This document shows positions 25,615 to 48,284 of a stretch of DNA of 64,000 bases, in pieces. The notes below the pieces were generated by a model. That model was not told where the DNA came from. It ran no database searches and saw nothing but the letters and a program-made list of their open reading frames with translations. Numbering within the stretch: position 1 is the first letter of the stretch; each line of letters opens with the position of its first letter. Source of the DNA: an endosymbiont of Galathealinum brachiosum (GTDB taxonomy: Bacteria; Pseudomonadota; Gammaproteobacteria; SZUA-229); the NCBI GenBank assembly GCA_003349885.1, contig QFXC01000002.1, forward strand, positions 3,850-67,849, written 5' to 3'. The translations under genes were made by a program, and so were the position numbers.

Positions 25615-25631
25615 TTACACTCTTAATGAAT

Positions 25632-26870: not shown

Positions 26871-26890
26871 TAACTATACGCCATATTTAT

Positions 26891-26936
26891 AAAAAGGGGA
26901 CGGAGGGATTATAATATAATCCCTCCGTCCCCTTTT
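26891..26936. repeat. repeat family A copy
   Basis: aaaaaggggacggagggattataatataatccctccgtcccctttt. Confidence 0.8.
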
Positions 26937-26976
26937 CTAATAACCATGCCTGATCAATAAGGAATAAACGAAGCGG

Positions 26977-27609: not shown

Positions 27610-27752
27610 GTGTATTTAGCAAACGTTTACTTAACTGTTTTAATTTAAACTAATGTCTGATTCATCTAAAACCAGCTGACAACCATTATATTACTACTAT
27701 AAATGGGGCTAGATCCAATTTATTAACATCAATTACTTCACCACCAATCTCA

Positions 27753-28583: not shown

Positions 28584-28635
28584 ATAAAACTACAACTTAA
28601 CAATAAAAATGGGCGAATTATAACTGAAATAACAT

Positions 28636-28681
28636 AAAAAGGGGACGGAGGGATTATTTTTTAATCCCTCCGTCCCCTTTT
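28636..28681. repeat. repeat family A copy
   Basis: aaaaaggggacggagggattattttttaatccctccgtcccctttt. Confidence 0.8.
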
Positions 28682-28798
28682 ACATCTCCATCTTCAGTTT
28701 TTTTAGACAGATGTTTATTATCAAAATAACGCATCATACCTGCTGAACCAATCACAAATAATAGAGCCAGTGAAAATACAATGACAAACAGTTTCATA

Positions 28799-31000: not shown

Positions 31001-31283
31001 AGAGAAATTACTTAGTTGAAAGCGCTATTATACCAAGTAATGAGCTGAAAGCGGTATGGTGATTAATATACATAAGCCCCCTGCTCAGTTTATTCATTCA
31101 AACCTGCAAAATCACTGGTTAAAAATCGAACAAATAGACGACTGTTTATGAGTGTATTTTCACACAACCCGCATTAAACTATATAAGTCGATAGCAATGT
31201 AGGTTTATCTAGGCTAATCTACCGCCGCTGGCCTACAAAGCCCGACAAATGAATACTAAAGATTGAAGATTAATTGGTGATAA

Positions 31284-31814
31284 ATGATAAGTTTTTTAGA
31301 AAACCTGCGCAAAACCTCCGGTTTATTTAAAGAAGGTAAAGAAGTAACTCAGGAGACTTCAGCCGATGTTTCAAAGATAAATGCTGAAGTAAAAGCCTCT
31401 ACAAGCATGATTAACCGAATTCAACAGGGCCACAATTTTGGCATTGTTATTGGTTTAGATATAGAAACAGCCCTGTACCGCACGCCCCCTGAGCTAAAAA
31501 TAAATAACCTGATACAGCCTTTAAGGGAAACCTTCATATTTGAAGGCACGGGCATTAATGTTATTAACGGCGTGGCGCTACTACAACATATGCAGGATAC
31601 CGGTGAAACAGAATACCCATTTGCTATAGGCTCACTACCCGCTGTTTCAGATATTCAACAAGCTGAAATTAAAAAACAGCTAAGCAGAATTTTTAACCGA
31701 ATAAGCACTGTATATGATTTAATTTCAGATGAATCAGCACACAGTAATGATAACCCGGGTGCTTTTATAAAATTCATTGATAAAATCACACTCATCAAAC
31801 AACCTGAATCATAA
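31284..31814 (+). CDS. hypothetical protein
   Basis: ORF only. Confidence 0.3.
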   Translation: MISFLENLRKTSGLFKEGKEVTQETSADVSKINAEVKASTSMINRIQQGHNFGIVIGLDIETALYRTPPELKINNLIQPLRETFIFEGTGINVINGVALLQHMQDTGETEYPFAIGSLPAVSDIQQAEIKKQLSRIFNRISTVYDLISDESAHSNDNPGAFIKFIDKITLIKQPES

Positions 31815-31820
31815 AAAACA

Positions 31821-31866
31821 AAAAAGGGGACGGAGGGATTATTATTTAATCCCTCCGTCCCCTTTT
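31821..31866. repeat. repeat family A copy
   Basis: aaaaggggacggagggattattatttaatccctccgtccccttttt. Confidence 0.8.
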
Positions 31867-31879
31867 TACCTACAACAAC

Positions 31880-32323
31880 ATGAAAATAAAACCACTCATT
31901 GGCATTGATAACATCATACTCGGCAGCTCAAAAGAGATTATTTATAATCTTCTTGGCCAACCTGACTCGACTAACAGTGATGAATGGCCTGACGGCACTA
32001 TATCTGAGGCATGGTTATATACGTCGGCAGGTTTAACGCTTAATTTCGATTCAGACGACCACTACCGGTTATCAACCATCAACTCAAATTCAAAAGATAC
32101 GACACTGGATGATTTAAAAATTATTGGAATGGATATAAATACAGTTATTAAAAACCACCCTGATATTATAGTGGATGAAGATTTATCAGAAGATGTAAAA
32201 GACTATCTCTACCCAGAAAAAGAAATTTCATTCTGGGTTGTTAAAAACATCATTGAACACATCACGATTTTTCCCGAGTATGATAACTCAACAAATTTGC
32301 CTATATGGCCTGTTACGCAATAA
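31880..32323 (+). CDS. hypothetical protein
   Basis: ORF only. Confidence 0.3.
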   Translation: MKIKPLIGIDNIILGSSKEIIYNLLGQPDSTNSDEWPDGTISEAWLYTSAGLTLNFDSDDHYRLSTINSNSKDTTLDDLKIIGMDINTVIKNHPDIIVDEDLSEDVKDYLYPEKEISFWVVKNIIEHITIFPEYDNSTNLPIWPVTQ

Positions 32324-32355
32324 AAACAGACGATTTTTATTTTAAACAGGCCGGC

Positions 32356-32577
32356 CTATTCAGAAACGCCTGAGTCAACATCCACAGCTTTACTCTGTTC
32401 AGCAATATTTTCATTTGGTGAATTTTCTTCCTCCAGCAACGCTTCTGCTTTCGCCCTGTCAGCCTTCGAAATGTAACGCTTACGCTTAGGCCGTGTATCC
32501 AGCTTGGCACGCGCACGCTTGAGGCGTTTTTTGAATAAGCCTTCTATCTTCTTTTTACGGTTCATAACCACCTTCAA
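32356..32577 (-). CDS. small highly basic protein
   Basis: K/R-rich 73 aa ORF. Confidence 0.3.
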   Translation of the reverse strand: MKVVMNRKKKIEGLFKKRLKRARAKLDTRPKRKRYISKADRAKAEALLEEENSPNENIAEQSKAVDVDSGVSE

Positions 32578-32721
32578 CTTATCTTCGTTACGCTTTTTAA
32601 CCTCACTATTATATATCTATTACATTTAAGTATCAGCGCATATTTATCACTAATAATGATAGAGAAACGCGCTTAAATCCACTGTTTTTTAAGCTATTAT
32701 TCTCTGTAAAATTAAAGAATT

Positions 32722-32779
32722 AAAGGGGTCGGTGACAAATGTTAATACTAATAATTATCAATTGTCACCGACCCCTTTT
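32722..32779. repeat. repeat family B copy (ggggtcggtgacaa-loop taatactaataattatca-ttgtcaccgacccc)
   Basis: 14-bp stem, shared 18-nt loop core with copy at 43883. Confidence 0.7.
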
Positions 32780-32881
32780 ACTCGCTCACCTTTTACTCTC
32801 CTTTTACTCATTAAAATGATCGAATAAACAGTGTTTGAAAGCGAAGTAAATCAGGCGGACTAATTTACCAGCCACATGAGA

Positions 32882-33658
32882 TTAGTTACTTTTTTGATGT
32901 ATAGACGAGGCGATATTAATAAAAAACTGATCAACATCTGCCTGTACCGGACTAGCATCACCTAAACCAGCGGGATCTAATGAATCAAACCAGCTGTCAT
33001 AATTAACTGCTATTAAGACCTCTTCGCTAAGGTTAGTCGCGGATAAATCTAGCGGGGTTAGAAATAATAAATCCCGGCCAATTAATGTCACTGATTTAGA
33101 TATAATAAATGGATTGCCGTTATAGGTCCCACTCACATATAAACTTTTCCCTACCATATCAGGTTCACCGCTACCGATTGCAGGTAGATTGACAGCATCT
33201 TCATCTGCTACTGCCATATCAATACTAACGCCACATAGTTGATCAGTTATTAAGGTGATATTACCTAAATCAATTTCAGCTCCGTCCGCTAATAATAAAT
33301 TAATCACCACTGGTTCACCCGTCGAATTTTCTGTAGCTTCAGTATGCGCACTAGCTGCGGGTATAATAAAATTCAAGGCTTTTTCTGCCATCGCAACAAA
33401 TTGGGTATCGCACTCATCTGCAATGGTTAAATTTGAAAACACCAGATAAGCTTTATCTAAAACAACCGTTCCAAAACCACTTACATTAATTGTTTTTGGC
33501 CCCGCAACCGCATTCAAATTGCTAACCGTGTCTGGCGTAGCTGAAAAATCCACATGAATGCCTTCAGTGATACTATTTGAACCAATATCACATGCCGTTA
33601 ATAACAACATTGAGAGAGATAAAAATAATAATTTCATTTTAATGGGTATCAAAATCAT
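32882..33658 (-). CDS. lipoprotein, last gene of 4-gene periplasmic cluster
   Basis: lipobox LLTAC; overlaps upstream gene by 20 nt. Confidence 0.4.
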   Translation of the reverse strand: MILIPIKMKLLFLSLSMLLLTACDIGSNSITEGIHVDFSATPDTVSNLNAVAGPKTINVSGFGTVVLDKAYLVFSNLTIADECDTQFVAMAEKALNFIIPAASAHTEATENSTGEPVVINLLLADGAEIDLGNITLITDQLCGVSIDMAVADEDAVNLPAIGSGEPDMVGKSLYVSGTYNGNPFIISKSVTLIGRDLLFLTPLDLSATNLSEEVLIAVNYDSWFDSLDPAGLGDASPVQADVDQFFINIASSIHQKSN

Positions 33659-34547
33659 AAGTTACACCTAATGTTATAATCGTTCCTTCTTCATGATTAC
33701 CATTTAATTCCTTAACAACAGGCAACTTTATAATAAAATTTAGAAGCAAATCTTCTTGCAACGTATAGATTACCGCAGGTGCAATAAACGCAATAAAACC
33801 GCCCGAATTTGGATCTTCTACTGAGCTAAACTGATCTTTTTCACTCCAGCGCGCTTCTAATCCTAACTGAAATGCAAGCTCATAATCTTTCGCATATTGT
33901 CCAAAGGCATTAAACGTCCAGGCATCTCCAGCTTGAAATTCCTGAAAACCTTCACCAGATACAAAATAAGCTGTGCTGGTATACATCATCCAGGGAAATT
34001 CAAAATGCGCATACCAGGCTCCTACATTAACCGTGGTAGCACCTGTTCCAGGTTGAACATCAAAATCCAGTACCTGACCATTATTAAACTGTTCTTCTGC
34101 GGTTCCAAATCGAACACCACCTAACAATCCATACATGTGCGACTGAAAGCTATCATGCTCCTGTAAATAGTTTTTAAAATTTATACTAATATCACCAGGC
34201 GTACTAACACTTTCTTTTTCAAGTGTCGTTTTAGTTAGTTCACGATCTACCCAGGGCAAGCTTAGGCCAAACATCCAACGACGATTAGGTGCCCACGCTA
34301 AATTAAGATTGAGTCGATTTTCATCTATTATTTTTAAATCAACACCTTCAACCCCTATTTCTTCATCTCGATTTAAATAATCGACCGATAATCTTAATCT
34401 GTTTTCATAAGGTTTTTCTGCACCTAATGCGGTAAGTGTCGGGTCACCTACCAGACAGGTTGAACATGCAAAGCTGAGCTTAGGTAAAAATAAAACGATA
34501 CTTATAGATACAAGTATTAAATGAGGTTTTGTCATATATATTTTCAT
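33639..34547 (-). CDS. putative outer-membrane beta-barrel protein
   Basis: signal peptide, alternating hydrophobic pattern, aromatic-rich; CSTC near N-terminus. Confidence 0.35.
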   Translation of the reverse strand: MKIYMTKPHLILVSISIVLFLPKLSFACSTCLVGDPTLTALGAEKPYENRLRLSVDYLNRDEEIGVEGVDLKIIDENRLNLNLAWAPNRRWMFGLSLPWVDRELTKTTLEKESVSTPGDISINFKNYLQEHDSFQSHMYGLLGGVRFGTAEEQFNNGQVLDFDVQPGTGATTVNVGAWYAHFEFPWMMYTSTAYFVSGEGFQEFQAGDAWTFNAFGQYAKDYELAFQLGLEARWSEKDQFSSVEDPNSGGFIAFIAPAVIYTLQEDLLLNFIIKLPVVKELNGNHEEGTIITLGVTYDFDTH

Positions 34548-35783
34548 TTAAGGGCACGCCGTATGCATCGGAATATTTTCAAACGGATCAGATAATTCAG
34601 GATTACAAACAAAATCCATATCAGTTAATGATTTTAAAAATTCAATTAAATCCACTTCTTCTGCTGCAGTTAATATAAAACCGGAAATAAAACTACTCTT
34701 ATTCGGGTTTAAAGCACCATCCCCCTGATTTTCCCCTGTAGAAATTAATCGCCCTCCTCTTTTATAATGCGCGATGACCTCTTCAAGTGATGCAATACTT
34801 CCATCATGCATATAAGGTGCAGTCAGTTCTATATTACGTAAAGTCGGTGCTCTAAATTTTCCTTCGTCTTCCGCCGCTAAAGTAAACTCTATTAACCCTG
34901 GATTGTTGTCAGGAAAAGAACCATCACCATTTAAATTATATAATCCCGTATTGTGAAAGGGTTTAGAGTCAAGTGCGGTACCAGTATGATCTATTGAATC
35001 ACTAAAGTTGAAACCACCATGACAATGAAAACATTCAGTGCGTTCGCTAAAAAATATTTCACGCCCGCGTTTTGCAGAATCCGACATGGCATTAGCATCA
35101 CCACGTTGAGTTTTATCGAAAGCTGAATTGCCCGTTATCATCGTTGCACCAAAAGCGCCAATAGCTTCTGTGAACTTAAATATTGTAAATGGATCTGCTG
35201 CATCAGGAAATGCATTATTAAATAAGGTTGGGTAATCAATGGTTCCCGCAACAGGGTCAACTAATACCTGCCTGAATCGATTAGCAATTTCAATATCATT
35301 GCCTTCCCAGCCTAACTCAACTGGATCTTCATTTGTCAGAACGGCCAGTGCCTGTTCATGCAAATGAACAATGACATTATTGCTCCAGTTTTGAGTCGCA
35401 TTGTATACAACATTCCCCATACTCATTGAATTACGAGGATGAACCGCACCTTCAGAACCAATAGATGTTACCAGGCCATCTGTAAATGCTTTATCCTGCT
35501 GATGACAATCTGCACAGGACTGTGTTTGATTAAATGACATATTCCGGTCATAGAATAAAAAACGACCCAACTCAATTTTTGCGTTAGACAACCTGAAATC
35601 ACATGGAATACTGGGTTCAGGAAAATCTGCTGGATAGGAAACTAAACCATCTACACCACATTCAGTTTTGCTTAACGGTTCGTTATCTGAACCGGCTTCA
35701 CCGCCCCCACCACAACCTGTCAATAATGCAGAAAAGAATATTGATAGAATTGTGGCAGGTATTGTATTTAACAACTGTTTCAT
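34548..35783 (-). CDS. di-haem cytochrome c peroxidase family (CCP/MauG/MbnH-like) lipoprotein
   Basis: two CxxCH (CADCHQQDKAFTDG; CFHCHGGFNFSD) in CCP-typical context; lipobox LTGC. Confidence 0.7.
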   Translation of the reverse strand: MKQLLNTIPATILSIFFSALLTGCGGGGEAGSDNEPLSKTECGVDGLVSYPADFPEPSIPCDFRLSNAKIELGRFLFYDRNMSFNQTQSCADCHQQDKAFTDGLVTSIGSEGAVHPRNSMSMGNVVYNATQNWSNNVIVHLHEQALAVLTNEDPVELGWEGNDIEIANRFRQVLVDPVAGTIDYPTLFNNAFPDAADPFTIFKFTEAIGAFGATMITGNSAFDKTQRGDANAMSDSAKRGREIFFSERTECFHCHGGFNFSDSIDHTGTALDSKPFHNTGLYNLNGDGSFPDNNPGLIEFTLAAEDEGKFRAPTLRNIELTAPYMHDGSIASLEEVIAHYKRGGRLISTGENQGDGALNPNKSSFISGFILTAAEEVDLIEFLKSLTDMDFVCNPELSDPFENIPMHTACP

Positions 35784-35814
35784 ATTGACGCTCTACTATA
35801 AATATCAATAAAAA

Positions 35815-36714
35815 CTATTGTTTACTGAATAGTCTTTGTTCACCACTGTATGCAGAAGTGCTGCTACCGTTGCCATAGTTATAATCTAGACCAAGACGCG
35901 GCATTACTTCAATACAGTCATCATCATTCGCAAATGACTGGCAACCATGTTTGTTGTTAGTGCCACCTAGGGTAGTTGAAATATCAGATGCTTCTAATAC
36001 ATTCACCGGGTCGATAACAATCGTATCCGTATTTACATTCATATTTTGAACACAAACTTCAACTGTATTTGGAACCGTACAAGATTGAGTCGGTGCCACC
36101 GTTGCAGCACCCGTTCCACAATCACCTTGCGCGCCAAGATGAATATTAAATGGAAGGTTGGTTCCAGCTGGATCACCTACACCATCAATGCGTAAATATT
36201 TACGGCCAATTTTCCATGCCCATAACATACTCACATCGTTTAAAGGTGAAGCCGCTGTGCTGGCATCGGTATGGTTCATGTCTTCTGGCACACCCAGTGT
36301 AAAGCAAACTTCAGTATTACTTAAATCGACACTCTGAGGTGTTGTCACAGTACCCGCTATCATCGTATTTGTTTGAGTCGTGCCGGCATTACAGCCATTT
36401 TCAAAATCTAATAGAGCCAGTCCATCCAACTGGAATACACCATCCTGACTAAGCGCTACTTCGTACTCGACGCCACTTGCTTCATCATGAATATGAACGT
36501 CATGAACATATAATCTAAAATCTGTAACTGTATAGTCATTATTGTTTGTACCAACACCTGAATAGGTATCGCCACACACAAAATCCGTATTATTAACTTT
36601 TGCGGCAAAATCTAAGACTATAGGGGATTCACTGGATACGTCATTACTATCACATGCACTTACAAGGATAAGACAGCTTAAAATACTCAATACTGGGGTG
36701 ACTGATTTAATCAT
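35815..36714 (-). CDS. periplasmic lipoprotein immediately upstream of the di-haem peroxidase; possible MbnP-like partner
   Basis: lipobox LVSAC; gene order partner->peroxidase resembles mbnP-mbnH pairs (inference, not sequence-verified). Confidence 0.35.
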   Translation of the reverse strand: MIKSVTPVLSILSCLILVSACDSNDVSSESPIVLDFAAKVNNTDFVCGDTYSGVGTNNNDYTVTDFRLYVHDVHIHDEASGVEYEVALSQDGVFQLDGLALLDFENGCNAGTTQTNTMIAGTVTTPQSVDLSNTEVCFTLGVPEDMNHTDASTAASPLNDVSMLWAWKIGRKYLRIDGVGDPAGTNLPFNIHLGAQGDCGTGAATVAPTQSCTVPNTVEVCVQNMNVNTDTIVIDPVNVLEASDISTTLGGTNNKHGCQSFANDDDCIEVMPRLGLDYNYGNGSSTSAYSGEQRLFSKQ

Positions 36715-37395
36715 TACTTTCTCATTTAACTACTGGGGGTTAAATCAACTATAAGGGCTTCATTTGACACATACAATGCGACAAATTGACTCATGTCAAT
36801 TTGTCATAATTCAGCCGGCACTCTATTAACCTATTGAATTTACTGACAATTTCTTGTTACACCATTGAAAACCAGAAAAGAAACAGGTGCCAGTGACACA
36901 CTTACGGCATTCGGAATTAAACTTGCCACTCTTCCGTCTCCTACTAAAAGCACCACAACAAAGCTTAAAAATTTAGCTAAATTTGATACTAAATTAAAAT
37001 ATACACACTTTAATTTATAATATACATTCTGACCTTTACCTTGTTCTTTCATATAGACATTTTCAAACAGCTTTACCTGCTTTAGTAACCAGCTTAATGA
37101 TGGTTTAGGGTTCATTTGATAATTGGCAAACTGATTAATTAACCCAGCTGGTGTGAACAGAATACAGAATTACGCGTTTTCATTTCCCTGTTACCTTCAT
37201 AACGAAATTTAACAAAAGGTTTAAAATTCGAATAATCTGAAATAAAACCTGAAAACTCTTCCTGTATAAGCGTATTGTTTGAGCACGCTGATAAAGCCAT
37301 AAACAGTAAAAGGCTAAACAAGTGGCTGATTTATTTATCCATAAAGAGTCCTTTTTTATGCAACACAAAATATGGGATTAGAATAACAGCACTTT

Positions 37396-37447
37396 AAGGG
37401 GACGAAGGGGACGGAGGGATTATTTTTTAATCCCTCCGTCCCCTTTT
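37396..37447. repeat. repeat family A copy with partial internal duplication (aaggggacgaaggggacggaggg)
   Basis: extra gggacgaa half-arm before the full element. Confidence 0.75.
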
Positions 37448-37456
37448 ATTCAATAT

Positions 37457-39177: not shown

Positions 39178-39235
39178 GTTATATTCTCTGCACCAACGGT
39201 ACTATTTAATGGGGTGTTATATTCGGAATCGATAT

Positions 39236-39285
39236 CAGAGTCTAATATTCACTAATATTAGAAACAATTGCGCTCTGACACCTAT
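39236..39285. repeat. repeat family C copy
   Basis: cagagtctaatattcactaatattagaaacaattgcgctctgacacctat upstream of cvfB-like gene. Confidence 0.6.
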
Positions 39286-39835
39286 TTATATTTATACGTA
39301 AGAAATTCATTAAGCTTATAAAGAACAGTAATATAACATTTTAGCTAGTCTAGCGTTAAAAATATCCGCTTTGAAACTAGATTCTGAATTAATGTTTAAT
39401 GGGTTTATGCCTAATAATTAATCGGTGTCTGATACCTGTTTATATTTTTTCTTATCCTGATATTCTCAGTTCAAAACAGACCTATTCTTTTAAACGCAAA
39501 AATTCGATAGATACCTACATTATCAGTAAAGAAATAAAGCCCGTCATAATAGTGAGCATGTTTAAGCCTGACATAAACAATATCTATTAATTGCATATTT
39601 ATATTTAAAGATTAGCCTCACCTATAAAGTAAGCTTATTGATACAGATAAATAAATCTATAGAGCAGAATAAACGTTATTGATATAGATAAATAAAAACG
39701 TTCTTCAAAGTCATTTTGTTTATATTACGACTATTATTTGTAGTAACTGTGTACAGGTCATAGCTACCCTGTATAACCGCTGGTATACACGAATACCTAA
39801 CTATGAATTATTAGATTAATAAAGGATGCAATCAA

Positions 39836-40885
39836 ATGACTAACATCGAAGATCTGCTAGGTAAAGAAGCAAAGTCCCTTCTCTCTCATACCTGTAATGG
39901 AATACCCAAAGCTAATATACATATTCCGGGACCCGATTATATAAATAGAGTTGTTTCTAAAAAAAACCGTAAACCGAGTGTATTACGAAATCTAAGCGCA
40001 CTGTATAACCATGGCCGACTAGCGGGCACGGGTTATTTATCACTGTTACCGGTTGACCAGGGCGTAGAATATTCTGCCGGCGCTTCATTTGCACCTAACC
40101 CCGCTTTTTTTGATCCTGAAAACATAATTGAATTAGCCATTGAAGGCGGTTGCAATGCAGTCGCGTCAACAATGGGTGTACTTAATTCAATTGCCCGTGA
40201 CTACGCACATAAAATCCCTTTCATTGTTAAAATAAATCATAATGAATTGCTTACCTACCCGAATATTTATGACCAGACTTTATTTGCCAGTGTTAACCAG
40301 GCCTTTGATATGGGTGCTGCAGCAGTCGGTGCAACAATCTATTACGGCTCGCCTGAGTCACGTCGACAAATACAGGAAATATCAGAAGCATTTGAACATG
40401 CACATGAACTCGGTATGGTCACCGTATTATGGGCTTACTTGCGTAACAATGCATTTAAAAAAGGTGGTAACGATTACCATGTTGCCGCCGATCTTACCGG
40501 GCAGGCAAACCACCTTGCCGCCACAATTGACGCTGATATTATAAAACAGAAACAGGCACAGAATAATGGTGGATTTAATGCCATTAATTTTGGTAAAACC
40601 CACCCAGATGTATACAACAAACTGACCAGCGAACACCCTGTTGACCTGGTTCGTTACCAGGTTGCCAACTGTTTTATGGGGCGTGTGGGTATGATTAATT
40701 CCGGCGGCGCATCAGGTGATGATGATTTACACCAGGCGATACGTACTGCGGTAATAAATAAACGGGCCGGCGGCATGGGATTAATCTCAGGCCGTAAAGC
40801 ATTTCAGAAACCAGTGAAGGATGGCATTCATTTACTGAATGCTATTCAGGATGTTTATCTATCCAGTGATGTAACTATTGCCTAA
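39836..40885 (+). CDS. fbaB: fructose-bisphosphate aldolase class I (FbaB/DhnA type)
   Basis: nearly collinear with E. coli FbaB across the whole 349 aa (e.g. [45 protein letters not shown]). Confidence 0.9.
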
Positions 40886-41080
40886 GTTGTTTTATTAACA
40901 CACTAAATTGTAAACAGATCAGATTCTCGTACTATTTAATATTAATTAGATGTATTAATATATAGATTAACAATAAACCTGTGTTTTTATGGTTTATTGA
41001 TATAGATAAATAAACTATAAAAACACAACCACTATATTAACAGTGTTCACAATTACTTTTTATATAAAATATCAGGGGAA

Positions 41081-41479
41081 ATGACTATGCCAACTGTAAA
41101 AAAACCTGCCGTTAAAAAGAAGACTGTCGCGAAGAAGAAGACCGTTACTAAAAAGAAAAAAGCGATAACAAACCGTAAAGCGGCTCAAAATAAACGCAAA
41201 GCTTTAGCTAATAAGCTGAAAGATGATTTAAAAACCACTAAAAATGCACTCAAATTTGCTAAAAAAGCCGCTAAGGAAGAACTTAAACTTGCAAAAGAAG
41301 CAGCCAAAGCTGAAATTGATGTATTAAAAGATCAACTTAAAGCCACATTAAAACGTGAACAGGCACTACTTCAACTTGGAGAAAAGAAAGCCAAAATGAT
41401 GTTGGCAGCTGGTGAACGCTGGGAAAAACAACAAATTGCTAAAATCAAAAAACTGGCTGTAAAAAAACGTCGAAAATAA
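41081..41479 (+). CDS. lysine/alanine-rich histone H1-like protein
   Basis: KKPAVKKKTVAKKKTVTKKKK... low-complexity basic repeats. Confidence 0.5.
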   Translation: MTMPTVKKPAVKKKTVAKKKTVTKKKKAITNRKAAQNKRKALANKLKDDLKTTKNALKFAKKAAKEELKLAKEAAKAEIDVLKDQLKATLKREQALLQLGEKKAKMMLAAGERWEKQQIAKIKKLAVKKRRK

Positions 41480-41647
41480 ATATAAAAAAATCAGGGTCAG
41501 ACAGTAATTTTCGCTAACATTAGAAAACACTACTCTCTAACCCTGTTTTTCGATTTTCCATCGACCCCATTAATTATTTACCCTTTTAATTTCTTAATCA
41601 TATGGCAAAGAAGCTGTTAATAACTTAATACTCTATCAATATATTTA

Positions 41648-42112
41648 TTAATATAGAATGTACGGGCCACCAGCAATCGCAATAACCACACAAAGCCCTA
41701 GTAACATATTAATTAAGCCTAGAATACGTATAACACGTAAATGCCCCTCTGCTCTCTCATGCGCATGACTTTGAATAGAACGCTTGAATTTCTGGTAAAA
41801 AATAAAATATATCAATAAAAAAACGACTATCATCAGCACGCCCAAACATGCCATTACAAGAATATAAACAGGAGCATTCATAAAATCATTAAAACGGTAA
41901 ATAAGCATACCAATCCCCGAGCTCAGCAAGGTCAATACAGCCAGCCATACCCAAAAGAAAAAAGACTTTAGAATATTAACCCACACTGCAAGTTGCTGCT
42001 CCTGGTCCAGCATGCTAATTGCAGGTCCTGACACCACTATAAGAAAAAACATTCCTCCAACCCATATATTAATGGCTATTAAGTGAATGATGATAGCTAT
42101 AGCATTAAGCAT
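41648..42112 (-). CDS. small integral membrane protein
   Basis: 4 TM helices. Confidence 0.4.
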   Translation of the reverse strand: MLNAIAIIIHLIAINIWVGGMFFLIVVSGPAISMLDQEQQLAVWVNILKSFFFWVWLAVLTLLSSGIGMLIYRFNDFMNAPVYILVMACLGVLMIVVFLLIYFIFYQKFKRSIQSHAHERAEGHLRVIRILGLINMLLGLCVVIAIAGGPYILY

Positions 42113-42361
42113 AATATTTACCTAAATGAATAATTATAGGGGCGATGATAAATTATAACGACAATAATTCTCAGTTGTTACCTACCCATTTTATTTCCAT
42201 ATACATTATATAAATCACTAATATCATCAATACAATTTGATAATAATTGGTGCAAGAGAAAAACATCCACTGCTATTAATAATAATTTCGCTCTGACACC
42301 TATTAACTAATTTAAAATAATTATTTATCTTTTACTCTGAACTCAATCATTATTTAAAAAT

Positions 42362-43687
42362 TTATACGTCATGTTTTTTATTTGTAAATTTAATAATTAA
42401 CCAGGTTGAGCTTATAGCAAATATCAATATAGCCGCTGCCGCTACAACATTACTTAACAATTGCGGTGACACAACTAACAACGTTCCCAACATCAGCATC
42501 ATTACACCTGATAACAATTTTAATACAATGCCTTCCTGTTGAGATAATTTTCTTGAACCCAGTTTTATAGTAAATAAAACAACAATAGCTAATAAAGGCA
42601 ATATATAAACCACGTTATACAACATTAGATATAAGTAATAACTTTCTACAGGCAATGATTTTAACGTCAATATTCGGGTGTACACCATCGGAAAGCCAGC
42701 CGTGCATAACAATTCATAGCTATTTGCCACAATAGCTAACACGACTGTAGCCAGAACAACTACCACTATTGAATCAAGACGTAACAGGTATCGGATACGA
42801 TCAAATATTTTAGGCTTTGCATTTTCAGACAAACTTAGTGATACACCTTTTTTAAACCAGAAATAATCTTTAATATTTATAAGTGAAATAACAATAGCAA
42901 CAGCACCTGCTATTAGTGTAATTAGACGTAATTCACCTAAATATATAAACAGGTTAAGCCAGGCAGACATAAACAGGAAATAGATAGCGCCTGAAAAGAA
43001 CACAAAAATACCACCTATCAATGCCATTCTGCTCCGACTCTGACCATGAACCATCATACTCAGCAAAAATAACAAAACAAAAAAAGCACAGGGATTTAAT
43101 GCATCCATACCTGCAATAAAAATGGTTAACATCAGTAGTGAATAATCATCTGTTGATATATCACCCAATATAGGAATATCAACTGATGTTAAATATTTTG
43201 GATCTAATACAAATTTAGTTGTATTGTCTGGATTATTTTCTTTGGCAAATTGATAACATGCTTGCAAATAAGATTTTAATAATTTACCTGTTGTAGCTTT
43301 ACTATCATAACCACTAATCAAATTTCCACAAAACATAAACGTGGGTACGCTGCGCGCATCATTTCCAAACCTTTCAGCCATATCAATATAGGTTTGTACA
43401 TTTTCTGGGTAATTTACTAATTCGAGTGAATGTAATTTTAACCAGGGAAGTTGCTGATCTATTTCATCAATATCAGGCCGTGCTACCTGGCAATGGGGGC
43501 ATTTTTCTGACCAGAAAAAATATAAATGAATAATTGGCTGATCATTTGTGTTTTTCTCATACCAAAGGGGTTCATCTAATGCAAATGCATCCGCCACTGG
43601 CAACATAAGAAAAAACAGCATTAATAGATAACTAATATTTTTTTCTATTCTATTCATTACCTTTCGTTTATCCATCATTATTAGCAA
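42362..43687 (-). CDS. periplasmic thioredoxin-fold domain (CPHC) fused to polytopic DsbD/CcdA-like membrane domain
   Basis: FFWSEKCPHCQVARPD; then 8+ TM helices with Cys in TM segments (NPCAFF, LLCTAGFP). Confidence 0.45.
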   Translation of the reverse strand: MLIMMDKRKVMNRIEKNISYLLMLFFLMLPVADAFALDEPLWYEKNTNDQPIIHLYFFWSEKCPHCQVARPDIDEIDQQLPWLKLHSLELVNYPENVQTYIDMAERFGNDARSVPTFMFCGNLISGYDSKATTGKLLKSYLQACYQFAKENNPDNTTKFVLDPKYLTSVDIPILGDISTDDYSLLMLTIFIAGMDALNPCAFFVLLFLLSMMVHGQSRSRMALIGGIFVFFSGAIYFLFMSAWLNLFIYLGELRLITLIAGAVAIVISLINIKDYFWFKKGVSLSLSENAKPKIFDRIRYLLRLDSIVVVVLATVVLAIVANSYELLCTAGFPMVYTRILTLKSLPVESYYLYLMLYNVVYILPLLAIVVLFTIKLGSRKLSQQEGIVLKLLSGVMMLMLGTLLVVSPQLLSNVVAAAAILIFAISSTWLIIKFTNKKHDV

Positions 43688-43882
43688 TAATTTCTATAAT
43701 CATGCTAACAAAGCACGGGAGGTATCTCCATCAAATATTTTGTGATCCTGATAATTCTTCTCACACCTGCAGCTTGTTATGCTGAGTCTCAAGGTATTGT
43801 GTTAAAAGGAGACTTTCCCCTATAATCGGTCAACTCGACTCATAACAACCCGTCCTGGCCCAATAGTAGACGCCTGAGTATT

Positions 43883-43934
43883 AAAGGGGGCGTGACAATT
43901 GTAAATACTAATAATTATCAGCAGTCACCGACCC
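43883..43934. repeat. repeat family B copy
   Basis: gggggcgtgacaattgtaaatactaataattatcagcagtcaccgacccc. Confidence 0.7.
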
Positions 43935-44105
43935 CATTAATTCACCTCATATTATTATATTATGTCAGCGCAAAAACCGTGACATAATAACCTTATGTTA
44001 CTAACCACTACTCTAGAGACTCTGAAGTGAAACAATCTATAAAACCCAGAACAAAGGCCACTGCCCTGCAGGCATTCTATGGTAATGCAATCTTACGATT
44101 AAGGT

Positions 44106-44834
44106 GTGCTGATAATGCGTGAGCCAATACGACTGGATAAACGTTGTGTTGAGCTGTTTGATTGCTCACGTGGCGATGCAGTGAAGTACATTCAAGGTGG
44201 CTGGGTGCTGGTAGATGGCGAAGTAGAAGAACGCCCTCAGTTTAAAGTGCAGAATCAGCAGATAGAACTGCATGAAAATGCGTCGTTAGAGCCAATTGAA
44301 CCGGTAACGCTACTGCTCAATTTGCCCGATGGGTTTGGTACCGATGATTCAACTGAAATGCAGCAATTAATCACCACCGAGAGCCATTGTGATGAAGATT
44401 ACTCCGGTGTGCACATGCTCAACAAACATTTTTATGATCTTAAACCCGCTTCAATTCTACAGAATGGAGCTTCGGGTTTAATGGTATACAGCAAAGACTA
44501 CAAGGTGATACGCGTACTACTTGAAAATGACAAAAAGAAAGAAGAGGAATACATCGTAGAATTTAGTGACGAGTATACGTCCGAGACACTAGAGAAACTA
44601 AACTGGCTTGCGCATAGTAAAGATGAATCACTTCCTAAATACAAAGCCAGCAAGCAAAGCGAAAAATGCATGCGTTTTGTAATTGAGTTTGCAGACCCCG
44701 ATCAAATTGAAACCCTGTGTAAACGTTTCAACTTAACTATTGTAGCGATGAAACGGATTAGAATAGGTCGGGTTTCTATGAAAAAATTACCGTCTGGTCA
44801 GTGGCGCTATTTATCCAGAAAGGCTATGTTTTGA
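44106..44834 (+). CDS. RsuA-family pseudouridine synthase-like protein lacking catalytic Asp
   Basis: S4 domain (LDKRCVELFDCSRGDAVKYIQGGWVLVDGE) and RsuA-like C-terminus (IRIGRVSM..LPSGQWRYL) but motif II reads ILQNGASGL instead of RLDxDTTGL. Confidence 0.5.
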   Translation: MLIMREPIRLDKRCVELFDCSRGDAVKYIQGGWVLVDGEVEERPQFKVQNQQIELHENASLEPIEPVTLLLNLPDGFGTDDSTEMQQLITTESHCDEDYSGVHMLNKHFYDLKPASILQNGASGLMVYSKDYKVIRVLLENDKKKEEEYIVEFSDEYTSETLEKLNWLAHSKDESLPKYKASKQSEKCMRFVIEFADPDQIETLCKRFNLTIVAMKRIRIGRVSMKKLPSGQWRYLSRKAMF

Positions 44835-44863
44835 GAATATAACTCTAAGAAGAATTGGTATTG

Positions 44864-44907
44864 GAGTGCACACTCTCTAAACATTAGAAACAATTGTGCT
44901 CTGGACT
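44864..44907. repeat. repeat family C copy
   Basis: gagtgcacactctctaaacattagaaacaattgtgctctggac. Confidence 0.6.
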
Positions 44908-44967
44908 TCCCCCTATTATCTTACGCGCTAATGGGTGTTGCTGAGATTAATACAATTATTCAGTAAA

Positions 44968-46077
44968 TTAGGATAATTCCTTAAATTGATTGTAGGCTTT
45001 TTCTAGTCGATCATCTTTTACTTTATTTAAACTAAAAATGGTATCGCATTTATCTGCGGAAGCAAAATCAATCATAATTATATTCGGAAAGAAAGCTTTC
45101 ATACGCATTTTTTGATTAGATTTTCGTTTCAAAATTTTATCCAACGAGAGCTGATGATCGATAGATGCCTCCAGGCCACAGCGCCACAGCTCATCCATTT
45201 TATTAACGCCTGTATTCTTCGACCACAGCAGATTATTTCTGCTCTTGATACTGCTAAGTGATCCCGTAGCAGTCCAATACATCATACCTAATACATAGGG
45301 TGATTGAAGGTCATCGGCATTAGCCATTTGTAACATAAGCTTCTTTTGCTTTTTAAAATTTTCACTCATTTTGCTTTTATTTGTTTTCCAGAAAGCCCCA
45401 GCTGATGTTCCGCCTTTTCCAAAATATTGAAGCCCTTTGTAACCAATAGTATAGGCTTTAGCTGGCCCCTTTTTAGCCTTAAGAGACCTAAAGCCCAGGA
45501 TGCCATCTTTAGCACCTTGCGTTATATCTTTAAGGGCTTTATCGTTAAATACGCAAATCACTTTTCTAGAAACTTCGTCAAGTGTAAGCCTGCCGAAATC
45601 TTTACCCTGATCTACAAATATACTGCTACCAAGAATATTGATACAGTAATCAGCTATCAGCTGATAGTTTGTACACTTATCAAACTTTAAAATAAGAAAC
45701 TCTTTTGAATTACCACGAGTAACAAATGATTTTGCCTGTTTAAGCATGTTGGACAATTTAAGTCCCGTCACTCCATACTTCATACCACTACTAACATTAA
45801 CACTGTAGTCATCCTTGGCATGGCTGCTTTGTAGCTGGACATTAGATGTACTTTTTCCTTTACCATGGTATCCAACTAATGAAGCGCCGTTTTTACCACC
45901 CTGAGCAAGAATACGTAGATCAAATAGACGAATACCGGCATTTGCTTGTTTCCCTATATCGAGATCCTGTGTTTGAACAGCTTTACCCCCATTTGTGATA
46001 GAGGCATCATGACTTCCTGCAAAAATAATTTCGCTTAATCGCTTACCGCCGCCTAGTTGGTGATAGTTAATTCCCAT
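44968..46077 (-). CDS. PI-PLC X-domain-like phosphodiesterase (PLC-like TIM barrel)
   Basis: AGSHDASIT / RLFDLRI / GYHG match bacterial PI-PLC blocks PGTHDSGT / RIFDIRG / LHHGP; lysine-rich C-terminal half. Confidence 0.5.
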   Translation of the reverse strand: MGINYHQLGGGKRLSEIIFAGSHDASITNGGKAVQTQDLDIGKQANAGIRLFDLRILAQGGKNGASLVGYHGKGKSTSNVQLQSSHAKDDYSVNVSSGMKYGVTGLKLSNMLKQAKSFVTRGNSKEFLILKFDKCTNYQLIADYCINILGSSIFVDQGKDFGRLTLDEVSRKVICVFNDKALKDITQGAKDGILGFRSLKAKKGPAKAYTIGYKGLQYFGKGGTSAGAFWKTNKSKMSENFKKQKKLMLQMANADDLQSPYVLGMMYWTATGSLSSIKSRNNLLWSKNTGVNKMDELWRCGLEASIDHQLSLDKILKRKSNQKMRMKAFFPNIIMIDFASADKCDTIFSLNKVKDDRLEKAYNQFKELS

Positions 46078-46126
46078 AATTACATCCTTTATTTATGTCA
46101 ATTTTTATGGATTATAGTCCTTTAAA

Positions 46127-46166
46127 TGAAAGAGGAGCTAATTTTTAATCCCTCCTTTCCTTTTTT
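46127..46166. repeat. degenerate repeat family A copy
   Basis: gaaagaggagctaatttttaatccctcctttcctttttt; right arm intact, left arm decayed. Confidence 0.5.
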
Positions 46167-46213
46167 CACCTTTTTCAAGGCTGCACTCCACCACAAGCCT
46201 ATACATCCCTAAT

Positions 46214-46507
46214 ATGAATGCCGTACTCACAACTTCAGAGCAGCAAAACTGGCTTGCACATAGCAAAAACGAATTACTGCCAAAATACAAAGCCAGCAAG
46301 AAAAGTGAAAAATGCATGCGTTTTGTAATTGAGTTTGCAGACCCCGATCAAATTGAAACCCTGTGTAAACGTTTCAACTTAACTATTGTAGCGATGAAAC
46401 GGATTAGAATAGGCCGGGTATCTATGAAAAAATCACCTCGGGTCAGTGGCGCTATTTATCCAGAAAGGCTATGTTTTGAGAATATACGCCTGTTATTTAT
46501 TAATTAA
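46214..46507 (+). pseudogene. frameshifted duplicate of the 3' end of the RsuA-like gene
   Basis: 46247..46486 ~95% identical to 44601..44841 at nucleotide level with 1-nt indel (attaccgtctggtcag vs atcacctcgggtcag). Confidence 0.6.
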
Positions 46508-46707: not shown

Positions 46708-47106
46708 ATGTCTGAACAAATTGCCAAACAATGGCTAGAAGAAGCAATCTCTACAGCCGCGAATAAAGATCATGCTGCACATATGAATCTCATATCAAAA
46801 AAAGTGACCTTACAGGGCATGGCTGATTTTGAAAACATTGGTTATGATGACTGGGCCGCACAAACGCAACACGAATTTGAAAACAATGTATTGAAAAGCA
46901 TTAGTTACAAAGGTTTTAAACCACTCAAAAGCACACAAACCCACATTATGTTTAAAACATTTGAAACGGTAGAAGCCAATGACGGCACGGTAAATGCTCA
47001 AGGCATAGAAATACTATTAGAAAAAGAAAATGATGAACAATGGAGACTGGTGCAGGAGCGGATATTACCTGAAGAAGAAGCAAGTCATGATGGACTTGTT
47101 GCTTAA
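46708..47106 (+). CDS. hypothetical protein (possibly SnoaL/NTF2-like)
   Basis: ORF; weak fold guess only. Confidence 0.3.
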   Translation: MSEQIAKQWLEEAISTAANKDHAAHMNLISKKVTLQGMADFENIGYDDWAAQTQHEFENNVLKSISYKGFKPLKSTQTHIMFKTFETVEANDGTVNAQGIEILLEKENDEQWRLVQERILPEEEASHDGLVA

Positions 47107-48284
47107 CGCCTTTTTTTAGGTACGTAATTCAAAATAGAAACAGGCACCACTTTTTTAACATCAAAGCCCTCGAATTCTTTTCGTACAATAATATGCCCCA
47201 GACGACTTTCGATAGCACAAAGATTTTTAAAATCATTTTTTGTTACAAATGATACAGCTTCACCGCAAGCACCCGCACGACCGGTACGACCAATTCGATG
47301 AATATAATCTTCAGTCTGGTATGGCAAATCATAATTAATGACACGAGTAAGGTTATCGATATCAATACCGCGAGCAGCTATACCTGTAGCCACTAAAAAT
47401 TTTAGCTCACCTGATTTAAATTCGCCCAGCACTCTTTCACGAGAAGCCTGACTTCTGCCGCCATGAATGGCCTCAGCTTTAATGCCGCGCTTTTCAAGCT
47501 GACTAACCAGCTTGGCACAGGCATGTTTTTTCTCAATAAAAATAAGCGCCTGTTCCCATTGCAGATCTTTAATTAAATGGCTTATTAATGCAGACTTCCT
47601 GTCTTTATCTACCGTGACCAGCCACTGATCAATTTTCGGTGTAGTAGCAGACCCGGGAGATACCGATATTTCTACCGCATCGTCGTTAACGGTATCGGCT
47701 AAAAAACGCACATCATTCGTTAGCGTGGCTGAAAACAATAAACTCTGACGTTGTTCAGGCAAACGATCAATAATATTATTGATATCGTCAATAAAGCCCA
47801 TATCCAGCATTCTGTCGGCTTCATCCAGCACCAGCACTTCAAGCTCATCAAAATGTATCGACCTTTGATGTGCCAAATCTATCAGCCGCCCCGGGGTGGC
47901 AACCAGAATATCAATACCTTCCAGTAACCGTTGTTTTTGAGCCTCGGTATCAACACCACCAAACATAGCCATTGAGCTAAGGTTTAAATACTTGCCGTAC
48001 TGTGCAACATTTGACTCAACCTGCACTGCAAGCTCACGAGTGGGCACAAGAATGAGCGCACGTATACGCTTGCCACGCAGCGTGCATTCGGTATTTAACA
48101 ACTCGAGTATCGGCAATACAAAACTGGCCGTTTTACCTGTACCCGTTTGCGCAGCGGCAACCAGATCTTTACCCGACAAGATAACCGGGACTGCCTGTTT
48201 CTGTATCGCTGTGGGCTCGGTATAACCAAGCTCATCCACCGCTTTTAAAATAGAATCACTTAATCCAGGCATTGAAAATGGCAT
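47103..48284 (-). CDS. rhlE: DEAD-box ATP-dependent RNA helicase, RhlE-like
   Basis: AQTGTGKTASF, PTRELA, DEAD, SAT, HRIGRTGRAG motifs; collinear with E. coli RhlE core. Confidence 0.8.
   Translation of the reverse strand: MPFSMPGLSDSILKAVDELGYTEPTAIQKQAVPVILSGKDLVAAAQTGTGKTASFVLPILELLNTECTLRGKRIRALILVPTRELAVQVESNVAQYGKYLNLSSMAMFGGVDTEAQKQRLLEGIDILVATPGRLIDLAHQRSIHFDELEVLVLDEADRMLDMGFIDDINNIIDRLPEQRQSLLFSATLTNDVRFLADTVNDDAVEISVSPGSATTPKIDQWLVTVDKDRKSALISHLIKDLQWEQALIFIEKKHACAKLVSQLEKRGIKAEAIHGGRSQASRERVLGEFKSGELKFLVATGIAARGIDIDNLTRVINYDLPYQTEDYIHRIGRTGRAGACGEAVSFVTKNDFKNLCAIESRLGHIIVRKEFEGFDVKKVVPVSILNYVPKKRR

What the first reader, a model, noticed from the sequence alone, without database searches (positions are those of the whole stretch)
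44601..46486. PI-PLC-like gene bracketed by ~240-bp near-identical direct repeats derived from the 3' end of the neighbouring gene
Positions 44601..44841 (the last ~70 codons of the RsuA-like gene plus 7 nt) recur at 46247..46486. Only a handful of substitutions separate the copies, plus one 1-nt indel that frameshifts the second copy. The ~1.4 kb between the copies carries a minus-strand gene with bacterial PI-PLC signature blocks (AGSHDASIT, RLFDLRI, GYHG) and a degenerate family-A palindrome. Immediately upstream of the second copy the sequence is still homologous to copy 1 but much more diverged, so an older duplication was partly homogenised by gene conversion. I see no recombinase or IS, so the mechanism is unclear. 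The PI-PLC-like protein has no obvious signal peptide.
Basis: seen in the sequence. Interest (0 to 1): 0.65.

Follow-up and report, generated by a model that had tools for sequence, protein, structure and literature searches.

The report
Inserted phospholipase-C-like gene, displaced gene end
A single gene for a phospholipase-C-like enzyme was inserted just after a conserved RNA-binding-protein gene in a tubeworm symbiont, leaving the old end of that gene behind as a decaying duplicate; this is a tidy example of a known kind of genome scar, not a new mechanism.

Summary
Window 44591-44841 recurs at 46237-46486 with 93% identity: 16 substitutions and a 1-nt deletion that frameshifts copy 2. The 1395 nt between the copies carry one minus-strand gene. 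Its predicted fold and catalytic motifs are PI-PLC-like, although it falls below Pfam detection.

Two relatives (L015, L016) have the empty site: rsuA-like gene, then a 132-aa gene, then a DEAD-box helicase. So this is an insertion into a slot that varies among relatives. Copy 2 sits where the original gene end sat. It is a pseudogene fragment, with substitutions at three residues conserved in at least 116 of 117 homologues plus the frameshift.

The repeat is a mosaic. A 107-nt block and a 46-nt tail are identical, while two patches differ by about 18%, as much as between species. That points to gene conversion on an older or foreign duplicate.

No recombinase, IS or tRNA lies nearby.

Best reading: incoming DNA carrying its own copy of the gene end recombined in, rebuilding the gene and displacing the resident end, as prophage e14 does at icd/icdC. 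The recombination route is unresolved. Known kind; modest interest.

The parts
44115..44834 (+). Intact RsuA/RluF-like gene: 239 aa from the ATG at 44115. The ORF opens at GTG 44106. It has an S4 domain plus a pseudouridine-synthase-like domain that lacks the catalytic Asp.
   Evidence: ORF. Pfam S4 scores 26.5 bits (cut-off 22.8) and PseudoU_synth_2 scores 17.6 (below its cut-off). RluF 3dh3 aligns at E 1.2e-8 with Gln at the GRLD Asp position. Orthologues of 76-89% identity are all 239 aa.
44591..44841 (+). Repeat copy 1 (c1): the functional last 81 codons of the gene plus 7 nt. Novel junction with the insert at 44841|44842.
   Evidence: All 6-7 c1-specific changes are third-codon-position changes to T or A. 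c1's downstream flank is not collinear with any orthologue.
44842..46236 (.). Unique inserted segment S (1395 nt). It is absent from all eight related loci examined.
   Evidence: BLAST of the window against the loci. Empty-site arrangement in L015 and L016. GC 0.377 and GC3 0.32 match neighbouring genes.
44853..44915 (+). Degenerate copy of a ~55-nt REP-like intergenic repeat (the 'D5' family). Other copies are at 39226, 41488, 42244, 51561 and 52747.
   Evidence: No stable hairpin (z = -0.4). The family also matches relative L014.
44968..46077 (-). 369-aa PI-PLC-like (PLC-like TIM-barrel) phosphodiesterase gene with no N-terminal signal-like stretch. It is the cargo of the insert.
   Evidence: 100% identical to DIZ80_00290 of the 'endosymbiont of Galathealinum brachiosum' MAG, with 634 homologues. 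AF2 model pLDDT 93.6. Foldseek PDB top hits are Listeria, S. aureus and B. cereus PI-PLC and eukaryotic PLCs. Profile versus PDB gives E 2.5e-7 and aligns GSHD and RxFDxR. H23, D24, R50, D53, R55, H71 and D337 are invariant in 43 homologues. 18 of 43 homologues hit PF00388 weakly.
46132..46171 (+). Degenerate copy of the 'family A' palindrome (GGGGACGGAGGGATTA...TAATCCCTCCGTCCCC), lying between the PI-PLC-like start codon and copy 2.
   Evidence: 78% to the reference copy. Not a stable hairpin.
46237..46486 (+). Repeat copy 2 (c2): the displaced, decaying 3' end of the RsuA/RluF-like gene, sitting in the ancestral position next to the ancestral downstream flank. Novel junction at 46236|46237. 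A 1-nt deletion lies between 46437 and 46438.
   Evidence: c2-specific changes include L162Q, Q181K and L225S at residues conserved in at least 116 of 117 homologues, plus D170N, S172L and the frameshift. Sequence just past the repeat (ACGCCTG) matches orthologues L007 and L001.
44661..44767 (+). 107-nt block that is 100% identical between the copies (partner 46307-46413). Probably a gene-conversion or crossover tract. A second identical block is 44796-44841 / 46441-46486.
   Evidence: Identity verified. Longest-run test gives P about 0.001. Both copies differ from the orthologues by 13-20 nt in this block.
46708..47106 (+). 132-aa SnoaL-like gene. It is the ancestral downstream neighbour of the RsuA/RluF-like gene.
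   Evidence: 92% aa identity to the gene directly after the rsuA-like gene in L015 and L016. The upstream 65 nt are also conserved. Weak Pfam SnoaL_3 hit.
47103..48284 (-). DEAD-box helicase gene, a syntenic anchor on the far side of the slot.
   Evidence: Pfam DEAD and Helicase_C. 85-92% nt identity to L013, L014, L015 and L016 in the same relative position.

Best explanation
This is a one-gene genomic islet in a variable slot, and it is immobile today.

Shown:
- The ancestral order was rsuA/rluF-like gene, then a 132-aa gene, then a DEAD-box helicase.
- In this lineage a 1646-nt unit was added: a copy of the last ~250 nt of the rsuA-like gene plus 1395 nt carrying a PI-PLC-like gene.
- The copy joined to the gene body (c1) keeps the gene intact.
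- The copy left next to the ancestral downstream flank (c2) is a pseudogene fragment.

Inferred:
- The incoming DNA came from a related bacterium and carried its own version of the gene end.
- It recombined with the resident gene through that homology. The route could have been Campbell-type integration of a circle, one-sided homologous recombination plus an illegitimate join, or a site-specific integrase that has since been lost.
- The topology matches prophage e14 at icd/icdC in E. coli.
- Later gene conversion between the two copies made a 107-nt block identical, and perhaps the last 46 nt as well.

The cargo is a cytoplasmic, or non-classically exported, PLC-like phosphodiesterase of unknown substrate. 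It is probably transcribed on the minus strand from the 159-nt spacer 46078-46236.

Because c2 carries L225S and a frameshift 3' of the identical block, RecA-mediated loss of the insert through that block would damage the rsuA-like gene. This may help to keep the insert in place.
For: - Repeat anatomy and sharp right boundary.
- Empty sites in relatives: L015 and L016 have rsuA-like, then ~172 nt, then the 132-aa gene (92% aa identity), then the helicase. L013 and L014 share the helicase anchor but hold other genes in the slot.
- c2 occupies the ancestral position. Its 3' flank continues collinear with L007 and L001, and the 132-aa gene follows it.
- c2 is decaying, with changes at residues L162, Q181 and L225 (116-117 of 117 homologues conserved) plus a frameshift.
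- c1 changes are all synonymous.
- In the unconverted patches (97 nt), c1 and c2 differ at 17 sites. That compares with c1-L001 at 15 and c1-L011 at 12, which is between-species level. The 107-nt core is identical, while differing from every orthologue by 13-20 sites. The longest-run test gives P about 0.001.
- c2 has only about 10 private changes in 97 nt. Continuous neutral decay since the c1/c2 split would predict 15-26 (rates). This suggests the two ends diverged as functional genes in separate lineages before being joined.
- No integrase, transposase or tRNA lies within 38-53.5 kb.
- PI-PLC-like fold and motifs.
- e14/icd/icdC precedent: PMC13626634.
Against: - No recombinase or mobility gene is present, and S has no terminal inverted repeats.
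- S carries two repeat families native to this genome and its relatives, and its composition is host-like. There is therefore no direct sign of foreign origin.
- The rate argument for 'diverged before joining' rests on about 100 nt and is borderline (P 0.006-0.1 depending on the neutral rate assumed).
- No donor arrangement (rsuA-like gene followed directly by the PI-PLC-like gene) was found. PI-PLC homologues sit in unrelated contexts without flanking repeats.
- The assembly used 2x100-nt Illumina reads (PMC6194059), which are shorter than the 107-nt identical block. Phasing of the patches across it depends on read pairs.
Confidence: 0.55

Rival explanations
1. In-situ duplication. The insertion event itself duplicated about 250 nt of the resident gene end, either as a long target duplication at a staggered break or as a tandem duplication with S captured at the joint. 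The two initially identical copies then diverged over a long time: c1 only at synonymous sites, c2 neutrally. A later gene-conversion tract re-homogenised the core.
For: - Both copies show AT-biased private changes, as expected for evolution in the same AT-rich genome.
- Within the patches, 7 of 32 third positions changed in c1 and 10 of 97 sites in c2. These numbers are small; no formal test of the two rates was run.
- S contains native repeat families and has host-like composition.
- No recombinase is present.
Against: - It needs a duplication about as old as the split from the nearest sampled relatives (c1-c2 = 17 versus c1-L011 = 12 in 97 nt).
- A neutral c2 should then carry 15-26 private changes rather than about 10.
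- A 250-nt target duplication, or an insertion exactly at a tandem-duplication joint, has no well-established bacterial mechanism.
Confidence: 0.3
2. The R-S-R arrangement is ancestral for the clade. The relatives with a single gene end (L015, L016 and others) lost the PI-PLC-like gene by recombination between the repeats.
For: Direct repeats with a 107-nt identical block would allow such deletions. The high patch divergence shows the repeat is old.
Against: - None of eight related loci has the PI-PLC-like gene or a second gene-end fragment.
- The slot holds different unrelated genes in different relatives.
- The nearest PI-PLC homologue is only 65% identical and sits in unrelated genomes.
Confidence: 0.06
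3. Assembly artefact. Two co-existing strains, one with and one without the insert, were chained by MetaPlatanus from 100-nt reads, so copy 2 is really the other strain's allele.
For: The MAG was built from 2x100 Illumina reads with a haplotype-merging assembler. The identical core (107 nt) exceeds the read length.
Against: - c2 has a frameshift and substitutions at three family-invariant residues, so it is not a functional allele of a second strain.
- The left junction 46236|46237 shares no k-mer-length overlap with the gene.
- The assembly has 76x coverage, 14 contigs and a single ribotype.
Confidence: 0.04
4. Transposon-, IS- or MITE-mediated, or integron-cassette-type, insertion of the PI-PLC-like gene.
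For: REP-like repeats lie near both ends of S.
Against: - There is no transposase or integrase and no terminal inverted repeats. Only an 8-nt chance-level match was seen by eye.
- A 250-nt duplication is far longer than any transposon target duplication.
- The two REP-like copies belong to different families and are degenerate.
- No Rfam or attC-like structure was found.
Confidence: 0.02

Closest known systems
Prophage e14 (and phage 21) integrated in icd of E. coli K-12, with the icdC C-terminal pseudogene
   Same: - An intact host gene runs into the inserted DNA.
- A homologous C-terminal fragment of the same gene lies at the far end of the insert, next to the original downstream flank.
- The two ends differ mainly by synonymous or conservative changes.
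- Recombination between them would remove the insert and create a chimeric gene (PMC13626634).
   Different: - e14 is 15 kb and encodes its own site-specific recombinase with a short core. Here the insert is 1.4 kb with one cargo gene and no recombinase.
- The displaced fragment here is frameshifted.
- The homology is mosaic, with a 107-nt identical tract.
Integrase-less remnants of integrative elements (cis-mobilisable elements or decayed genomic islets at the 3' ends of protein genes)
   Same: A short cargo segment bracketed by direct repeats derived from the 3' end of a housekeeping-type gene, without its own integrase. This comparison rests on my own knowledge and was not tested.
   Different: Typical att repeats are tens of nt and identical. 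No cognate integrase or related full-length element was found in the window or in relatives.
Homology-facilitated illegitimate recombination, or Campbell-type RecA integration, of foreign DNA
   Same: It needs only one homologous anchor (the gene end) and no dedicated recombinase. It can leave a partial duplication of the anchor around the foreign segment. This is general knowledge and was not tested here.
   Different: These routes are known mainly from transformation experiments. Here the donor, a circular intermediate and the competence of this symbiont are all unknown.
Bacterial PI-PLC (Listeria PlcA, B. cereus and S. aureus PI-PLC; Pfam PF00388 PI-PLC-X)
   Same: - Same TIM-barrel fold (Foldseek E 6e-9 to 1e-8; TM 0.54-0.65 on the target).
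- Aligned GSHD and RxFDxR motifs.
- Invariant His, Asp, Arg and His.
   Different: - About 14% identity.
- No signal peptide.
- About 70 extra residues: a beta-hairpin region at 56-107 and a long C-terminal helix.
- No Pfam hit.
- The substrate is unknown.

Membership tests
Integrative element with gene-end-restoring duplication (e14/icd type) | Target gene remains intact, and a homologous 3' fragment of it is displaced to the far end of the insert | tested here: met
   c1 completes the 239-aa ORF. c2 lies at 46237-46486 next to the ancestral flank.
Integrative element with gene-end-restoring duplication (e14/icd type) | Empty (uninterrupted) site in related genomes | tested here: met
   L015 and L016 have rsuA-like, then the 132-aa gene, then the helicase, with a single gene end.
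Integrative element with gene-end-restoring duplication (e14/icd type) | Element-encoded site-specific recombinase (integrase, with or without excisionase) | tested here: not met
   S holds only the PI-PLC-like ORF. No integrase or transposase Pfam hit in ORFs across 38-53.5 kb. No tRNA.
Integrative element with gene-end-restoring duplication (e14/icd type) | Short identical core at which strand exchange occurs; excision and re-integration | not testable with these tools
   There is a 107-nt identical block, but no way to tell crossover from later conversion. There are no population data.
PI-PLC-like phosphodiesterase superfamily (PF00388 PI-PLC-X) | PLC-like TIM-barrel fold | tested here: met
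   AF2 model with pLDDT 93.6 and pTM 0.93. All of the first 50 Foldseek PDB hits are PI-PLCs or PLCs, best E 6e-9.
PI-PLC-like phosphodiesterase superfamily (PF00388 PI-PLC-X) | Catalytic His/Asp, phosphate-binding Arg and second His | tested here: met
   H23-D24 and R50 align to GSHD and RFFDIR of S. aureus PI-PLC. H23, D24, R50, H71 and D337 are invariant in 43 homologues. Equating H71 and D337 with the general acid and the triad Asp is an inference.
PI-PLC-like phosphodiesterase superfamily (PF00388 PI-PLC-X) | Passes the curated Pfam/NCBIfam model | tested here: not met
   No Pfam or NCBIfam hit for this protein. 18 of 43 homologues hit PF00388 weakly, best E 8.4e-6.
PI-PLC-like phosphodiesterase superfamily (PF00388 PI-PLC-X) | Secreted enzyme cleaving PI or GPI anchors | not testable with these tools
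   The N-terminus MGINYHQLGGGKRLSEIIFAGSHD has no hydrophobic signal-like stretch (inspection). Activity is unknown.
RsuA/RluF pseudouridine synthases (the gene that supplies the repeat) | S4 domain plus pseudouridine-synthase catalytic domain with the conserved Asp (GRLD) | tested here: not met
   S4 passes its cut-off, but PseudoU_synth_2 is below its cut-off. The RluF Asp position is Gln here, and Q or E in 117 of 117 homologues.
Ectopic gene conversion between direct repeats | Mosaic identity: an identical tract flanked by much more diverged homologous sequence | tested here: met
   0 of 107 sites differ in the core versus 17 of 97 in the patches. Longest-run test P about 0.001.
Transposon / IS / MITE insertion | Transposase or terminal inverted repeats with a short target-site duplication | tested here: not met
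   No transposase. No terminal inverted repeats among the pairs. The duplication is 250 nt.

The most novel reading that the evidence does not exclude
The unit could be a recombinase-free 'homology-carrying cassette': a single cargo gene that travels between related bacteria together with a copy of a conserved gene end. It would insert by host RecA at that gene, making the rsuA-like/helicase slot a recurrent exchange point. The cargo, a cytoplasmic or non-classically exported PI-PLC-like enzyme, could be a factor acting on host phosphoinositides or GPI anchors in the tubeworm symbiosis.
Probability: 0.08. Interest if true: 0.55.

Novelty: new member of a known kind. Interest (0 to 1): 0.3.

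Why it matters
The locus gives a clean, datable example of how a horizontally transmitted animal symbiont gains a single gene. The insertion site, the empty sites in relatives, the displaced gene end and a gene-conversion tract are all visible.

It also flags a large family of about 370-aa PI-PLC-like proteins (more than 600 members) that lacks a signal peptide, is not covered by Pfam, and might be relevant to life inside host cells.

It does not point to a new mobility mechanism. The topology is the one known from e14 at icd.

Tried and rejected
- **Homology upstream of copy 2.** The local alignment is no better than shuffles and no offset gives a signal. Rejected.
- **Database hits for the 369-aa protein.** Pfam, NCBIfam and PADLOC return nothing. 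It is not a recognised defence protein.
- **Is the PI-PLC family itself mobile with flanking repeats?** Homologues in Microbulbifer (L004) and two metagenome contigs (L009, L010) are solitary, in unrelated contexts and without flanking repeats. None is in viral contigs. The gene-end core pattern is also absent from viral contigs.
- **Independent assemblies of the same locus.** The exact PI-PLC protein is not on record in the contig index. The closest rsuA-like orthologue is only 89% identical, so no same-species comparison was possible.
- **Recombinase, tRNA or RNA element nearby.** None found.
- **Promoter/terminator scan.** Fewer promoter-like sites than in shuffles; uninformative.
- **Folding of the two REP-like remnants in S.** Not more stable than shuffles.
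- **Compositional foreignness of S.** None.
- **Polarising the 17 differences to decide which copy is foreign.** c1 carries the derived synonymous states and c2 the derived non-synonymous states plus the indel. About 100 informative nt are too few to separate 'imported gene end' from 'old in-situ duplication'.
Full report
**Source.** The 369-aa protein is 100% identical to DIZ80_00290 of the MAG 'endosymbiont of Galathealinum brachiosum' on a 294-kb contig. The RsuA-like protein is identical to that MAG's 'RNA-binding protein'. That genome is 3.77 Mb, 38.9% GC and 14 contigs. It was assembled with MetaPlatanus from 2x100 Illumina reads at 76x coverage (PMC6194059; PMC10300362).

**Observation.** The repeat finder and MAFFT show a direct repeat at 44591-44841 and 46237-46486 with offset 1646.
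- There are 16 substitutions and one 1-nt deletion (c1 G44792 is missing in c2), giving 93.2% identity.
- Both copies end at the same base, 7 nt after the TGA stop.
- Homology starts at 44591-44601.
- Copy 1 (c1) is the last 81 codons of an intact 239-aa gene. Copy 2 (c2) is frameshifted.
- It is the only long repeat in the window.
The best local alignment of 46078-46236 to the gene scores 18, against 17.2 +/- 2.3 for shuffles, and no alternative offset helps.

**The enclosed gene.** ORF 44968-46077 (minus strand, 369 aa) has no Pfam, NCBIfam or PADLOC hit.
- It has 634 homologues of about 350-390 aa in Microbulbifer, Verrucomicrobiae, Luteimonas, Kinneretia, Agaribacter and many metagenomes. 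A few are labelled PI-PLC-X.
- A 43-sequence profile hits S. aureus PI-PLC at E 2.5e-7 and aligns AGSHDA with PGSHDS and GVRLFDLR with GVRFFDIR.
- H23, D24, R50, D53, R55, H71 and D337 are invariant.
- 18 of 43 members hit PF00388 weakly.
- The AlphaFold model is confident (pLDDT 93.6, pTM 0.93). Its Foldseek PDB hits are exclusively PI-PLCs and eukaryotic PLC catalytic domains. The best are 1aod at E 6e-9 with TM 0.65 on the target, and 4s3g at 1e-8.
- It is therefore a divergent member of the PLC-like phosphodiesterase superfamily. It has extra beta-hairpins (residues 56-107) and a C-terminal helix, and no signal-like N-terminus (inspection). Its substrate is unknown.
- Homologues are solitary genes in unrelated neighbourhoods, never next to an rsuA-like gene, without flanking repeats, and absent from viral contigs.

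**It is an insertion.** Orthologues of the RsuA-like gene at 76-89% aa identity were retrieved with their flanks.
- L015 (JGI Ga0063040_1001970) and L016 (DRLB01000449.1) have the rsuA-like gene, then ~172 nt, then a 132-aa gene, then a DEAD-box helicase.
- The 132-aa protein is 92% identical to window 46708-47106. The 65 nt upstream of it and the helicase also align.
- The window has the same order, except that c1 + S precede c2.
- L013/L001 have a 357-aa gene between the rsuA-like gene and the helicase. L014 has four other genes there. L007/L008, L006 and L002 have yet other neighbours.
- None of these loci has a PI-PLC-like gene or a second gene-end fragment.
- The space just after the rsuA-like gene is therefore a variable slot, and the window's content is lineage-specific.
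- c2, not c1, sits in the ancestral position. Beyond the repeat, c2 continues ...TATACGCCTG, like L007 (TACACGCCTG) and L001 (TATACGCG). c1 continues with unrelated sequence.

**State of the two copies.** I polarised the 17 differences with eight orthologues.
- The 6-7 c1-specific states are all third-codon-position changes to T or A.
- The c2-specific states include L162Q, D170N, S172L, Q181K and L225S plus the deletion.
- L162, Q181 and L225 are conserved in 116-117 of 117 full-length homologues.
- c2 is therefore a decaying fragment and c1 is under purifying selection.
- This also argues against c2 being a mis-assembled allele of a co-occurring strain.

**Mosaic structure.** All differences lie in 44595-44660 (12 in 66 nt) and 44768-44795 (5 in 28 nt). 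None lies in 44661-44767 (107 nt) or 44796-44841 (46 nt).
- A difference-free run of at least 107 nt has P about 0.001 under uniform placement.
- In the patches, c1 and c2 differ at 17 of 97 sites. That is as much as c1 versus L001 (15) or L011 (12), and c2 versus L001 (15).
- In the core they are identical but differ from every orthologue by 13-20 sites.
- The tail is also identical to L015 and L016, so conservation may explain it.
- The repeat is therefore old or heterologous, with a later conversion or crossover tract.

**Which history?** At sites conserved among outgroups, the window lineage changed 16% of third positions in the 5' part of the gene and 27% in the c1 patches. c2 changed about 11% of all positions.
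- If c2 had been neutral ever since it split from c1, 15-26 private changes would be expected in 97 nt. About 10 are seen (P roughly 0.006-0.1).
- This leans towards the two ends having diverged as functional genes in different lineages. They would then have been joined by an insertion that brought its own gene end, after which the displaced resident end decayed.
- That is the topology of e14 in icd, with the icdC pseudogene (PMC13626634).
- The numbers are small, however, and an in-situ duplication followed by long divergence is not excluded.
- The recombination route is unknown: a site-specific integrase since lost, a RecA Campbell-type event, or one-sided homologous plus illegitimate recombination.
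- There is no integrase, transposase or tRNA within 38-53.5 kb, no Rfam hit and no terminal inverted repeats.
- S has host-like composition, with GC3 of 0.32 against 0.27-0.41 for neighbours.
- S contains degenerate copies of two REP-like families that occur elsewhere in the window and in relative L014. Any donor was therefore a relative, or the insert has been resident for a long time.

**Consequence.** A RecA crossover within the 107-nt identical block would delete S but attach c2's L225S and frameshifted tail to the gene, giving ...RVSMKKSPRVSGAIYPERLCFENIRLLFIN*. Only a crossover in the last 46 nt would restore the normal protein. This may slow loss of the insert (inference).

**Verdict.** The feature is real and well resolved. 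It is a one-gene islet with a displaced gene-end pseudogene and a gene-conversion tract, sitting in a variable slot. It belongs to a known kind of scar and does not require a new mechanism. The PI-PLC-like family is uncharacterised and mildly interesting for a symbiont.

Confidence is about 0.85 in the general account (insertion, displaced end, conversion). It is about 0.55 that the gene end was imported with the insert rather than duplicated in situ.

Noticed in passing
window 44115-44834: The 'RsuA/RluF-like' protein lacks the catalytic aspartate. In the alignment to E. coli RluF (3dh3), the GRLD Asp corresponds to Gln (SILQNG). Across 117 full-length homologues this position is Q (74) or E (43), never D. 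This looks like a conserved family of S4-domain proteins with a pseudouridine-synthase fold that are probably not synthases.
   Followed up: partly
window 22608-37453 (seven copies) and 46132-46171: A family of about 40-nt perfect palindromes, GGGGACGGAGGGATTA-N5-7-TAATCCCTCCGTCCCC, flanked by A and T runs. They are REP-like or bidirectional-terminator-like and lie in intergenic regions. The copy inside the insert is degenerate.
   Followed up: partly
window 39226, 41488, 42244, 44853, 51561, 52747 (D5 family); 32723, 42136, 43883 (D6 family): Two further intergenic hairpin-repeat families of about 55-60 nt. Both also match relative L014 (at 1748-1798 and 214-277), so they are shared across this Thiotrichaceae-like clade.
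   Followed up: partly
window 39178-44105: In relatives L014, L007 and L011 the CvfB gene lies directly upstream of the rsuA-like gene. In the window, 4.9 kb of other genes (DeoC-type aldolase, a 132-aa ORF, a CopD-like protein and a DsbD-like membrane thioredoxin) lie between them, separated by REP-like repeats. This is a second variable stretch.
   Followed up: no
L001 (contig end 1.2 kb after the gene), L007 (0.64 kb), L011 (0.16 kb): Three metagenomic contigs of relatives end shortly downstream of the rsuA-like gene. This may reflect strain-level variation at the same slot, or it may be chance.
   Followed up: no
window 4497-4537 and 28003-28043: A 41-nt direct repeat at 85% identity, 23.5 kb apart.
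   Followed up: no
window 46214-46507: A 97-aa ORF starting at ATG 46214 covers c2 and reads through the frameshift into the spacer. There is no obvious ribosome-binding site, and it is probably not a gene.
   Followed up: no
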